From Coxiellaceae bacterium (GTDB taxonomy: Bacteria > Pseudomonadota > Gammaproteobacteria > Coxiellales > Coxiellaceae): DNA of 64,000 bases. The translations under genes and the position numbers were made by a program. This document shows, one piece after another, positions 348-1,186 of this stretch (position 1 is its first letter; the number at the start of each line of letters is the position of its first letter). A model generated the notes under the pieces. That model saw only the letters and a program-made list of their open reading frames with translations, did no database searches and had not been told where the DNA came from. Location: contig JARGPC010000007.1 in assembly GCA_029212885.1 (NCBI GenBank), positions 4,652-68,651 on the forward strand, read 5' to 3'.

Positions 348-374
348 CCCTGCCTCCTAATCTATCATGCCGAT

Positions 375-478
375 CTACAGCTCTGTCATCCCGGCCTACA
401 GTTCTGTCATCCCGGCCTACAGTTCTGTCATCCCGGCCTACAGTTCTGTCATCCCGGCCTACGAGCCGGGATCCAGTC
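375..478. repeat. Tandem 21-bp repeat (CTACAGTTCTGTCATCCCGGC x4) ending in a GTCATCCCGGCCTACGAGCCGGGATCCAG hairpin; family 1 dispersed hairpin element
   Basis: Four direct repeats are visible at 375-458, followed by an imperfect palindrome CCCGGC/GCCGGG. The predicted ORF 367..693 (SVIPAY x4) is a translation artefact of this array. Confidence 0.85.
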
Positions 479-616
479 AAAAAGTCTTACACCGTAAGGC
501 CACCAGGGATACCTTTCTCGTGAACAGACTTCCCTGTCTTCGTACTCCTTTACATCCATGTATCATACGCCACTCGAAAGGTACCCTTGGTATCCTTACT
601 GACTATGGCTGTATGG

Positions 617-673
617 TCATGTCATCCCGTACTAGAGTCTGTCATCCCGGCCTACGAGCCGGGATCCAGTCCA
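617..673. repeat. Family 1 hairpin repeat copy (GTCATCCCG...TGTCATCCCGGCCTACGAGCCGGGATCCAGTCC)
   Basis: Near-identical to the terminal unit at 440-478. Confidence 0.8.
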
Positions 674-682
674 AACACCCTA

Positions 683-1048
683 TTAAGGTGTAGGTGTTGC
701 TGATTTTTCTTCTTCTATAAGCGCATCATCGAATTTTGGACCGCACTTGTGATTAATCGTGTGCTCTACCAAACGCAAATCATGGTTAATTTTGTTGGTT
801 AAGTCAAAATGCCCTTGTACTACTGAACCATCGACGTTGCTAACATAGGTTGGCTTCGTCCATAATCCGCCCAACCCCATCCTTGCAGACGGCAACTGAG
901 GGCGCTCAATGTCTCTGGGTGCTGACGTACCAATAAACTCCACATGCTCTAATGATCCCTTACCAACCAACATACGCAACCCCACCATTGGCAGCTCTTT
1001 ATCAGTTTCTACTAAGGTTTTGGTTTTTGCATCGTAATATTTTGGCAT
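683..1048 (-). CDS. Hypothetical small protein (121 aa)
   Basis: Complete ORF with an AGGAG-like sequence upstream (revcomp of 1055-1060). No confident family assignment from the sequence. Confidence 0.4.
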   Translation of the reverse strand: MPKYYDAKTKTLVETDKELPMVGLRMLVGKGSLEHVEFIGTSAPRDIERPQLPSARMGLGGLWTKPTYVSNVDGSVVQGHFDLTNKINHDLRLVEHTINHKCGPKFDDALIEEEKSATPTP

Positions 1049-1084
1049 GGTGTCTCCTCCTTGTTTTATTTTAAGTTTTTGTTA

Positions 1085-1186
1085 CTGGATCCCGGATCAA
1101 GTCCGGGATGACAGACAACCTGGATCCCGGATCAAGTCCGGGATGACAGATAACCTGGATCCCGGATCAAATTCGGAATAGCAGAC
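1085..1186. repeat. Three tandem 35-bp units CTGGATCCCGGATCAAGTCCGGGATGACAGACAAC (third degenerate); family 1 hairpin element
   Basis: Direct tandem copies at 1085-1119, 1120-1154 and 1155-1186. Each unit is an imperfect palindrome (CTGGATCCCGG / CCGGGATGACAG). Confidence 0.85.

What the first reader, a model, noticed from the sequence alone, without database searches (positions are those of the whole stretch)
367..1186. Family of short hairpin repeats (CTGGATCCCGG-N-CCGGGATGACAG) in tandem arrays and dispersed copies
The same imperfect palindrome occurs at 375-478 (21-bp unit x4), 617-673, 1085-1186 (35-bp unit x3), 25940-26045 and 33430-33568. A degenerate trace also sits at ~55228-55250 next to the metQ stop. 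Five copies in 64 kb points to a genome-wide miniature repeat family, REP/RPE-like. It produces spurious ORFs such as 367..693 (SVIPAY x4). The tandem amplification suggests the element is, or recently was, active.
Basis: seen in the sequence. Interest (0 to 1): 0.6.

Follow-up and report, generated by a model that had tools for sequence, protein, structure and literature searches.

The report
Ssn-type hairpin repeats in a Coxiellaceae genome
The short hairpin repeats are real and belong to a family described in 2025, found across bacterial phyla, that small GIY-YIG nucleases cut as single-stranded DNA; this window shows them turning over between related Coxiellaceae genomes and sitting in frame inside a gene.

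Summary
The window holds 8 intact hairpins, (C/T)TGTCAT-CCCGG-loop-CCGGG-ATCCAG, plus 1 decayed copy and about 9 half-units, in 5 clusters. GTCATCCCGG with up to 1 mismatch occurs 16 times against 1.4 expected. The isolated "trace" at 55234 is no more than chance.

The repeat is not lineage-specific. The exact pattern hit at least 117 loci in many phyla, against about 0.4 expected. It matches the Neisseria NTS / "Ssn-related motif" (SRM) of Chenal et al. 2025 (PMC11893778). Ssn GIY-YIG nucleases bind that motif and cut just upstream of it, on single-stranded DNA only. Three window copies fit the published SRM pattern exactly. All 8 keep the 5' GTC and 3' C determinants.

No ssn gene lies in the window or in about 66 kb from two related genomes. 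The partner nuclease is therefore inferred, not shown.

Three points go beyond the paper:
- Arrays of 5' half-units with a period of about 21 nt recur across phyla.
- An in-frame insertion in anmK differs in unit number between relatives and is predicted to be a disordered loop.
- Copies are present or absent at matching sites in related genomes.

Verdict: a new member of a known kind, of modest interest.

The parts
361..445 (+). Array of four 21-bp 5' half-units (TCTGTCATCCCGGCCTACAGT). The first (361-381) is decayed and three are perfect. Each carries the GTCAT 5' arm but no 3' arm.
446..476 (+). Intact SRM hairpin CTGTCATCCCGGCCTACGAGCCGGGATCCAG: an 8-bp stem, a TC/C internal loop and a CTG/CAG clamp.
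   Evidence: DNA fold -10.2 kcal/mol, z -5.4
619..638 (+). Decayed half-unit ATGTCATCCCGTACTAGAGT.
639..669 (+). Intact SRM hairpin identical to 446-476. It starts 14 nt beyond the stop codon of the 121-aa ORF (683-1048, -).
1085..1114 (-). Intact SRM hairpin (reverse complement CTGTCATCCCGGACTTGATCCGGGATCCAG). It fits the published SRM degenerate pattern exactly.
1120..1149 (-). Second intact unit of the 35-bp tandem array. It also fits the published SRM pattern exactly.
1155..1189 (-). Decayed third 35-bp unit (GTC changed to GCT, stem broken). It supplies the last codons and the stop of a 21-codon ORF (1167-1232, -).
   Evidence: (z 0.0)
25940..25970 (-). Intact SRM hairpin inside the anmK coding sequence, read in frame.
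25971..26013 (+). A spacer plus one 21-bp half-unit (CTGTCATCCCCGAGTCAACCT, 25993-26013) inside anmK.
26014..26043 (+). Intact SRM hairpin inside anmK. It fits the published SRM pattern exactly.
33429..33439 (-). SRM arm remnant GGGGATGACAA. Its TGA (33434-33436) is the stop codon of the 961-aa Band_7 ORF.
33443..33461 (+). 19-nt half-unit TTGTCATCCCTGGTAAGAC.
33462..33492 (+). Intact SRM hairpin with a variant stem (ATCCCTGG/CCAGGGAT). It is the left half of a tail-to-tail doublet.
33501..33546 (-). Intact long-loop SRM hairpin, the right half of the doublet. It encodes the last ~11 codons of the class-II DAHP synthase ORF (33513..34739, -).
33547..33566 (-). 20-nt half-unit (reverse complement TTGTCATCCCGGACTTTGGC).

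Best explanation
The repeats are copies of the NTS / Ssn-related motif (SRM) family in an uncultured Coxiellaceae genome.

Shown here:
- Each copy is an oriented hairpin. It has a conserved 5' YTGTCAT, a stem of about 8 bp whose sequence varies by compensatory changes, a loop of 5-23 nt, and a conserved 3' ATCCAG.
- The same element occurs in many bacterial phyla.
- In metagenomes it flanks small GIY-YIG (Ssn) genes as SRM(+)-ssn-SRM(-), with the GTCAT ends outermost.
- Dispersed copies elsewhere are mostly tail-to-tail doublets. That is the same geometry without the gene.
- Copies are gained, lost and resized between related genomes.
- One cluster sits in frame in anmK, in a predicted disordered loop.

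Taken from Chenal et al. 2025:
- The motif is recognised only as single-stranded DNA.
- Ssn binds the hairpin, and the C just after the palindrome is critical for binding.
- Ssn cuts a few nucleotides 5' of the motif, and this depends on the three bases before the palindrome.
- In Neisseria this restricts incoming transforming DNA.

Inferred for this genome:
- A cognate Ssn is encoded elsewhere in the genome, or was until recently. It acts on these sites when they are single-stranded, during replication, repair or DNA uptake.
- The family spread as non-autonomous derivatives of an SRM-ssn-SRM unit.
- The 21-nt 5' half-unit arrays and the 35-bp array grew locally by slippage or nick-and-resynthesis on the side where Ssn cuts.
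For: Identity:
- The published NTS is CGTCATTCCCGCGMAVGCGGGAATCYRG. The published SRM pattern is HGTCWYN(0-2)YYVSBRHN(0-5)WNVSBRGN(0-2)RNCYNB.
- Window copies 1085-1113, 1120-1148 and 26015-26043 match that pattern exactly.
- All 8 intact copies keep GTC before the palindrome and C after it.

Hairpin:
- DNA folds give z-scores of -3.4 to -5.4.
- Across 927 kb, 282 matches were selected on the flanks alone, against about 15 expected. Of these, 240 have a stem of at least 4 bp.
- In 29 distinct 30-mers, 99.7% of cells are paired and 4 of 11 pairs show changes on both sides. No shuffle out of 500 reached the covariation score.

Breadth:
- At least 117 loci carry the exact pattern, against about 0.4 expected. 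They include Actinomycetota, candidate-phyla-radiation (CPR) groups, Nitrospirota, Elusimicrobiota, Chloroflexota, Bacteroidota and alpha-, beta- and gammaproteobacteria.
- The 30-mer with the ACTTGAT loop accounts for 16 of the 129 matches.

Link to Ssn:
- L050 carries a GIY-YIG ORF (Pfam 1.8e-16). It is flanked by three doublets of the same ATCCCGG subtype as the window.
- Of 80 metagenomic ssn loci, 72 have an SRM-like hairpin within 300 bp and 54 have one on both sides.
- Density is 4.15 per kb near the gene against 0.29 per kb further away.
- Upstream copies are '+' 63:18 and downstream copies are '-' 78:21.

Doublets: 76 tail-to-tail, 20 head-to-head and 11 direct.

Turnover:
- The anmK insert lies at the same site in the window and in L119, but with 1 against 3 half-units. 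L120 has no insert there.
- The region downstream of sodC is empty in the window and holds 2-3 SRMs in L119 and L120.
- The 35-bp array is absent from the matching intergenic region of L211.

Tolerated coding insert: the AnmK model has mean pLDDT 84.5, and apart from the first six residues only residues 314-338 fall below 50.
Against: - No Ssn homologue was found in the 64-kb window. None was found in L027, L029, L083, L117, L119 or L120 either, about 66 kb from two related Coxiellaceae genomes. The search used an HMM of 120 Ssn sequences at maximum sensitivity.
- The rest of the genome could not be searched, so the nuclease partner is not shown for this organism.
- Only one ssn locus with the exact ATCCCGG stem subtype was seen (L050).
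- Five of the 8 intact copies miss the published degenerate pattern in the loop or stem-extension positions.
- One cluster in five is intragenic, whereas the paper reports 2% in N. meningitidis.
- No target-site duplication was found at 86 doublets, so nothing here proves transposition.
- Some hits come from metagenome-assembled genomes that could be contaminated bins.
Confidence: 0.8

Rival explanations
1. REP/REPIN-type elements: hairpins recognised and spread by a REP-associated tyrosine (Y1, HUH) transposase (RAYT), as in E. coli and Pseudomonas.
For: - Hairpin repeats occur as inverted doublets. The nuclease gene is flanked by doublets in L050. This is the geometry of REPINs around RAYT genes.
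- The paper itself draws this analogy.
- One subfamily has CTAC in its loop.
Against: - The conserved head is YTGTCAT, not the GTAG/GTGG head of REPs (established knowledge). CTAC or GTAG is absent from most copies.
- No Y1_Tnp domain was found in 34 window ORFs scanned with Pfam.
- The gene that co-localises with the motif is GIY-YIG, not HUH.
Confidence: 0.04
2. Orphan or Ssn-independent hairpins. The copies are relics of a past invasion, or persist through recombination and slippage. Alternatively they act mainly as landing sites for site-specific recombinases or phages, as Neisseria dRS3 is said to do for filamentous prophages (from memory).
For: - No ssn gene in about 130 kb of this lineage.
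- Many copies are decayed or are half-units.
- The SRM doublet site in L119 and L120 coincides with a 3.8-kb island in the window. This is compatible with SRMs marking recombination hot spots.
Against: - All 8 intact copies keep the positions needed for Ssn binding and cutting.
- Perfect 21-bp and 35-bp units and a 97%-identical copy pair argue for recent activity.
- The paper finds ssn in 81% of genomes with more than 200 SRMs.
- No IS110 or integrase domain was found in the scanned ORFs.
Confidence: 0.12
3. Host-function RNA or DNA hairpins, acting as transcription terminators, mRNA stabilisers or regulatory sites and kept by selection at gene ends.
For: - Four of five clusters lie between genes.
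- Cluster 5 sits between convergent genes.
- Cluster 2 lies just past a stop codon.
Against: - There is no T-tract, and the hairpins are not picked up as terminator-like or promoter-like.
- tyrS has its own terminator at 1274-1292.
- There is no Rfam match.
- Both orientations occur at matching positions.
- The same 30-mer in unrelated phyla is not expected of a host regulatory site.
- Ssn does not act on RNA.
Confidence: 0.03
4. A chance similarity or an assembly artefact.
For: The window comes from a metagenome-assembled genome. Tandem arrays can be mis-assembled.
Against: - 16 hits against 1.4 expected.
- An independent Logan assembly reproduces 1121-5523 at 100% identity.
- The same architecture appears in isolate genomes.
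Confidence: 0.01

Closest known systems
NTS / Ssn-related motifs (SRM) with SsnA GIY-YIG single-strand nucleases (Chenal et al., Nat Commun 2025, PMC11893778)
   Same: - The same oriented motif: YGTCAT, a palindromic stem of AT(T)CCC type, a loop, then ATCYRG.
- Three window copies fit the published pattern exactly.
- Many copies clustered around genes, and a spread across phyla.
- ssn genes flanked by the motif. This was reproduced here on 80 loci.
   Different: - The stem is ATCCCGG/CCGGGAT, not ATTCCCGCG.
- No ssn gene is seen in the window or in relatives' fragments.
- One cluster is in frame inside a gene.
- Polar 5' half-unit arrays with a period of about 21 nt are present. The word 'tandem' does not occur in the paper's main text.
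- Coxiellaceae and Legionellales are not named in the paper's main text.
Neisseria dRS3 repeats and neisserial intergenic mosaic elements
   Same: dRS3 (ATTCCC-N8-GGGAAT) is the palindromic core of NTS. Like the window repeats, it is multi-copy, intergenic and clustered, and it is linked to genome plasticity.
   Different: - The literal dRS3 consensus is not met.
- The window's arrays are half-units or 35-bp units, not RS blocks of 50-150 bp bounded by dRS3 (from memory).
REP/REPIN elements and RAYT transposases
   Same: Short hairpins that act as single-stranded DNA, occur as inverted doublets, and flank the gene of the protein that recognises them.
   Different: - There is no GTAG head.
- The partner is a GIY-YIG nuclease, not an HUH tyrosine transposase.
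- No RAYT gene was found.
Rickettsia palindromic elements (RPE)
   Same: Small palindromic repeats that invade both non-coding and coding regions of an intracellular bacterium and are tolerated in frame. The anmK insert behaves in this way.
   Different: - RPEs are longer, about 100-150 bp (from memory).
- Sequence relatedness to RPE families was not tested.
- The paper lists Rickettsia among SRM-rich genera, so some overlap is possible.

Membership tests
NTS / Ssn-related motif (SRM) | The sequence fits the published NTS consensus or SRM degenerate pattern, in one orientation. | tested here: met
   Three of the 8 intact copies match the pattern exactly. The other five differ only in loop or stem-extension positions. 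All 8 share YTGTCAT...ATCCA(G/C).
NTS / Ssn-related motif (SRM) | An imperfect hairpin with non-palindromic flanks: three conserved bases 5' of the palindrome (needed for cutting) and a C directly 3' of it (needed for binding). | tested here: met
   - DNA folds give z-scores of -3.4 to -5.4.
- GTC and C are invariant in the 8 intact copies and are lost in the decayed copy at 1155-1189.
- Covariation was found in 4 of 11 pairs.
NTS / Ssn-related motif (SRM) | Many copies per genome, in excess of chance and clustered near genes. | tested here: met
   - 8 intact copies in 5 clusters within 64 kb.
- 16 core hits against 1.4 expected.
- Relatives carry 4-5 per 8-21 kb.
- A genome-wide count was not possible.
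NTS / Ssn-related motif (SRM) | A cognate ssn gene (single-domain GIY-YIG, cd10448) in the same genome, typically flanked by the motif. | tested here: inconclusive
   - None in the window or in about 66 kb from two related MAGs.
- No GIY-YIG domain in the 34 window ORFs scanned with Pfam.
- The association holds elsewhere: L050 has the same stem subtype, and 72 of 80 metagenomic ssn loci carry the motif.
NTS / Ssn-related motif (SRM) | Bound and cut by Ssn as single-stranded DNA only, a few nucleotides upstream of the motif. | not testable with these tools
   This needs biochemistry. It is known for the Neisseria and Wolbachia pairs.
REP / REPIN (RAYT-associated) | A conserved GTAG/GTGG head 5' of the palindrome. 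| tested here: not met
   The head is YTGTCAT. CTAC occurs only in the loop of one subfamily.
REP / REPIN (RAYT-associated) | A RAYT (Y1 transposase) gene flanked by the repeats. | tested here: not met
   No Y1_Tnp hit in the window ORFs scanned. The gene flanked by the motif elsewhere is GIY-YIG. The whole genome was not tested.
Neisseria dRS3 | The 20-bp palindrome ATTCCC-N8-GGGAAT. | tested here: not met
   The window core is ATCCCGG-N5-7-CCGGGAT. It is related to dRS3 only through the wider NTS/SRM family.
Rickettsia palindromic elements | Sequence membership of an RPE family (RPE-1 to RPE-8 models). | not tested
   No RPE models or consensus sequences were available. Only the behaviour of in-frame insertion is shared.
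MITE of a DDE transposon | Terminal inverted repeats plus a target-site duplication. | tested here: not met
   Doublets have inverted ends, but the flanks of 86 doublets showed no conserved positions beyond YT|GTCAT and no obvious direct repeat; direct repeats were not scored formally. No transposase was found in the window.
Intrinsic terminator | A GC-rich hairpin followed by a T-tract. | tested here: not met
   The terminator scan did not pick up any SRM hairpin.

The most novel reading that the evidence does not exclude
The SRM(+)-ssn-SRM(-) unit is a true single-strand DNA transposon driven by a GIY-YIG nuclease. That would be a transposase class not yet recognised in bacteria. On this reading:
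- The tail-to-tail doublets scattered through this Coxiellaceae genome are its non-autonomous derivatives.
- The strictly 5'-sided half-unit arrays, with a period of 17-23 nt (mode 20-21), recur in Coxiellaceae, Rickettsiaceae, betaproteobacteria, Gemmatimonadota, Binatia and Parcubacteria.
- They are molecular footprints of its cut-and-resynthesis step, and they lie on the side where Ssn nicks.
- In-frame arrays such as the one in anmK would then be a source of length-variable protein loops.
Probability: 0.25. Interest if true: 0.75.

Novelty: new member of a known kind. Interest (0 to 1): 0.35.

Why it matters
The family and its nuclease were described only in 2025. How the motifs spread, and what they do outside Neisseria, is still open.

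This window adds an intracellular-type lineage (Coxiellaceae) in which three things are visible:
- gain, loss and resizing of copies between related genomes;
- tolerated in-frame insertion in a housekeeping enzyme;
- a polar ~21-nt half-unit array that recurs across phyla, on the side where the nuclease cuts.

These are concrete handles for testing whether SRM-ssn-SRM units are mobile elements.

For annotation, recognising SRMs explains several features here: spurious ORFs such as 367-693, odd C-terminal tails (the DAHP synthase ORF), a stop codon supplied by a repeat remnant (the Band_7 ORF) and a low-confidence loop (AnmK).

Tried and rejected
- Literature search for the literal string GTCATCCCGG returned only primer lists.
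- Rfam: no family at the gathering threshold. Only a chance miRNA hit (E 2.2) appeared in the permissive search of 300-1300.
It was replaced by the L050 protein and an HMM of 120 homologues.
- Look-ups of the window's own contig through P0001 and the 121-aa ORF were not on record. The rest of the MAG could therefore not be searched for ssn.
- blastn of the window against all loci found only the Logan copy.
- The anmK comparison did not give a clean empty site or target duplication. The ancestral loop has been replaced.
- No target-site duplication was seen at 86 doublets.
- Promoter and terminator scans found nothing in the repeats.
- A relaxed scan for SRMs with other stems found only background in the window: 17 hits including the 8 true copies, against about 13 in shuffles.
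- Ten viral contigs carry the motif but none carries ssn, so no vehicle was identified.
- The 121-aa ORF bracketed by SRMs was tested as a possible alternative partner protein:
  - It has no Pfam, NCBIfam or PDB match.
  - It has one 49%-identical homologue, in a syntenic locus.
  - I treat it as an ordinary lineage-specific gene, not an SRM-associated enzyme.
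Full report
**Observation**

- Cluster 1 has four 21-bp units at 361-444. The first is decayed and three are perfect (TRF 361-462, 4.9 copies, 93% matches). They run into a full hairpin, CTGTCATCCCGGCCTACGAGCCGGGATCCAG, at 446-476.
- Cluster 2 has a decayed unit at 619-638 and the same hairpin at 639-669. The two 38-nt stretches are 97% identical.
- Cluster 3 has two intact 35-bp units at 1085-1154 in the opposite orientation, then a decayed third unit to 1189.
- Cluster 4 (25940-26043) has a hairpin, a spacer, a 21-bp half-unit and a second hairpin facing the first.
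- Cluster 5 (33429-33566) is symmetric: half-unit, hairpin, 8 nt, inverted long-loop hairpin, half-unit.
- GTCATCCCGG with up to 1 mismatch occurs 16 times against 1.43 expected. No shuffle out of 100 reached 16.
- A scan needing both flanks and a stem gives about 0.04 hits in shuffles.
- As single-stranded DNA the 8 intact copies fold into an 8-bp stem, a TC/C internal loop and a CTG/CAG clamp. Energies are -8 to -16 kcal/mol and z-scores are -3.4 to -5.4. The third 35-bp unit has z = 0.
- The 'trace' at 55234-55245 is one half-site with two mismatches and no partner. That is what chance gives.

**Organism and setting**

- AnmK from the window is 100% identical to an NCBI protein of a Coxiellaceae MAG. 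The 121-aa ORF carries the tag P1U63_09905.
- Window GC content is 44.4%.
- Two related MAGs, JARGNX01 and JARGOB01, have AnmK 79% and 78% identical to the window's. They are syntenic around anmK.

**The family is found across bacteria**

My arithmetic gives about 0.4 chance hits for 596 Gb.
- Hosts include Bifidobacterium and Nocardia. They also include five CPR lineages.
- Further hosts are Zixiibacteriota, Cloacimonadota, Nitrospirota, Elusimicrobiota, Gemmatimonadota, Dehalococcoidia, Binatia, Bdellovibrionales and Bacteroidota.
- Many alpha-, beta- and gammaproteobacteria carry it too, including isolates such as Devosia geojensis and Ramlibacter.
- The 30-mer with the ACTTGAT loop, which is also the window's copy at 1085, 1120 and 26014, accounts for 16 of the 129 matches.
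- Some MAG hits could be contamination. The isolate genomes show the spread is real.

**Identification**

A search on dRS3 led to Chenal et al. 2025 (PMC11893778). The paper reports:

- About half of Neisseria dRS3 repeats are a longer oriented motif, NTS (CGTCATTCCCGCGMAVGCGGGAATCYRG).
- NTS-like 'Ssn-related motifs' occur in many phyla and flank small GIY-YIG genes (ssnA, cd10448).
- SsnA binds the motif only as single-stranded DNA and cuts a few nucleotides upstream.
- The C after the palindrome is critical for binding. The three bases before the palindrome are critical for cutting.

Tests on the window:

- The window motif aligns base for base: YGTCAT, stem, loop, stem, ATC, CAG.
- Three copies satisfy the published degenerate pattern exactly.
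- All 8 intact copies keep GTC and C. The decayed copy has lost GTC.

**Structure is under selection**

- Matches were selected on the flanks alone (GTCAT...ATCCAG) in 927 kb. There were 282 against about 15 expected, and 240 have at least 4 contiguous pairs.
- On 29 distinct 30-mers, 99.7% of cells pair and 4 of 11 pairs change on both sides. Examples are CCCGG/CCGGG to TGCGG/CCGCA and to GCCGG/CCGGC. The closing pair is A-T, C-G or G-C. No shuffle out of 500 reached the covariation score.
- The relatives carry an ATGCCGG/CCGGCAT subfamily, which differs by a compensatory double change.

**Link to the nuclease, re-tested**

- L050 (a Rickettsiales MAG) has a 98-aa GIY-YIG ORF (Pfam 1.8e-16). 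It is flanked by three doublets of the same ATCCCGG subtype.
- Its homologues are 60-70% identical in Daviesbacteria, Anaerolineae, Rhodocyclales and Gammaproteobacteria.
- In 80 metagenomic ssn loci, 72 have a GTC-hairpin-C within 300 bp and 54 have one on both sides. Density is 4.15 per kb near the gene against 0.29 per kb further out.
- Upstream copies point with the gene (63:18) and downstream copies point against it (78:21). The canonical unit is therefore SRM(+)-ssn-SRM(-), with the GTCAT ends outermost.
- Dispersed copies are mostly tail-to-tail doublets: 76, against 20 head-to-head and 11 direct. That is the same geometry with the gene missing. Cluster 5 is such a doublet.

**What is missing**

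- An HMM of 120 Ssn homologues was run at maximum sensitivity over all six-frame ORFs. It found only L050 and a weak hit in L046.
- It found nothing in the window. It also found nothing in about 66 kb of the two related MAGs.
- Pfam scans of 34 window ORFs show no GIY-YIG, Y1 transposase or IS110 domain.
- The remainder of the MAG could not be reached.
- The partner nuclease is therefore inferred for this genome. The paper reports ssn in 81% of genomes with more than 200 SRMs.

**Turnover between relatives**

- anmK: the window, P0002 and P0003 carry an insert of about 30-40 residues at one site, just before the conserved ILAGGG motif. It is built from 7-residue (21-bp) units of the type SGMTxxE.
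  - More distant homologues (P0005-P0008, P0016, P0035) lack it. P0004 carries a different, shorter sequence at the site.
  - At the DNA level the window has hairpin, one half-unit, hairpin. L119 has hairpin, three half-units and an arm remnant. L120 has neither.
  - The AnmK model is confident overall (mean pLDDT 84.5, pTM 0.85). Residues 314-338, and the first six residues, are the only stretches below 50. The insert lies between helix 284-310 and strand 343-347. It is therefore a tolerated surface loop, as with RPEs in Rickettsia.
- Downstream of sodC: the window has no SRM, L119 has two and L120 has three.
- tyrS side of the 121-aa gene: the 35-bp array is absent from the matching region of L211. 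The other side of that gene carries SRMs in both genomes, but with different make-up.
- Between the MFS stop and the ATPase promoter: L119 has a half-unit followed by one hairpin, and L120 has a tail-to-tail doublet. In the window a LysR-PvcA-PvcB-P450 island lies exactly there.

**Half-unit arrays**

- In the first sample, 32 of 304 hairpins have one or more copies of the 5' arm just upstream. The modal spacing is 21 nt (13 cases). Only 5 such matches lie downstream.
- In the independent ssn loci the figure is 14 of 208, with spacings of 17-22 nt, against 2 downstream.
- The arrays occur in Coxiellaceae, Rickettsiaceae, betaproteobacteria, Gemmatimonadales, Binatia and Parcubacteria. Unit tails differ between these lineages.
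- The arrays always lie on the side where Ssn cuts. The term 'tandem' does not occur in the paper's main text.
- Each extra 5' arm can pair with the single 3' arm in an alternative register.
- Whether this reflects slippage or nick-and-resynthesis is open.
- No target duplication flanks 86 doublets. Conservation stops at YT|GTCAT.

**Rivals**

- REP/RAYT is disfavoured. There is no GTAG head and no Y1 gene, and the partner elsewhere is GIY-YIG.
- A terminator or RNA role is disfavoured. There is no T-tract, no Rfam hit, and Ssn ignores RNA.
- Orphan or recombination-site repeats remain possible, because no ssn gene was seen.

**Verdict**

- The repeats are real and non-random. They are identified with high confidence as SRM/NTS-type hairpins.
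- This is a new member of a family already described.
- The side observations (polar half-unit arrays, an in-frame variable insert, TIR-like geometry) bear on the open question of how these elements spread.

Noticed in passing
window 477-618: The 142-bp segment between the two identical SRMs folds into an imperfect stem-loop of about 105 nt (arms 478-522 and 571-615). RNA z-scores are -4.0 on the + strand and -3.7 on the - strand. It has no Rfam match and no second copy in the sequence held.
   Followed up: partly
window 1167-1232 (-): A 21-codon ORF, MSIFIDACMGVLLVVSLLFRI, sits behind a GGGAGGTG ribosome-binding site. Its 5' part and the block upstream are conserved in the syntenic locus L211. 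Its last codons and stop come from the decayed third SRM unit.
   Followed up: partly
window 683-1048 (-): A 121-aa ORF with a strong ribosome-binding site is bracketed by inward-pointing SRMs. It has no Pfam, NCBIfam or PDB match. Its only homologue among 1.8 billion representatives is 49% identical, in a syntenic locus (tyrS neighbour) of another metagenome.
   Followed up: yes
window 13653-17404; L119 18518-18560; L120 16430-16520: A LysR / PvcA-like / TauD-PvcB-like / P450 island lies between the MFS transporter and the P-type ATPase promoter. At exactly that site the two related genomes carry SRMs instead (a tail-to-tail doublet in L120, a half-unit plus one hairpin in L119).
   Followed up: partly
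window 33434-33436 and 33513-33546: The TGA stop of the 961-aa Band_7/SPFH ORF lies in an SRM arm remnant. The last ~11 codons of the class-II DAHP synthase ORF are encoded by the long-loop SRM.
   Followed up: partly
window 60189-60368 (-): 6S RNA (Rfam RF00013, 53.6 bits, above the gathering score).
   Followed up: no
window 54576-55196 (+): A HigB-like toxin and an HTH (Xre-type) antitoxin pair, next to the metI-metQ fusion gene.
   Followed up: no
window 37435-47802 (-): A single ORF of 3455 aa. It was not examined.
   Followed up: no
L121-L130 (IMG/VR contigs): Ten viral contigs carry exact SRM hairpins, some as doublets. None encodes an Ssn homologue.
   Followed up: partly
L131-L210: Ssn proteins 53-66% identical to the Rickettsiales query (L050) recur in at least 598 metagenomic stretches. 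Homologues in the protein database come from very different phyla. This pattern suggests horizontal spread of the nuclease gene together with its motifs.
   Followed up: partly
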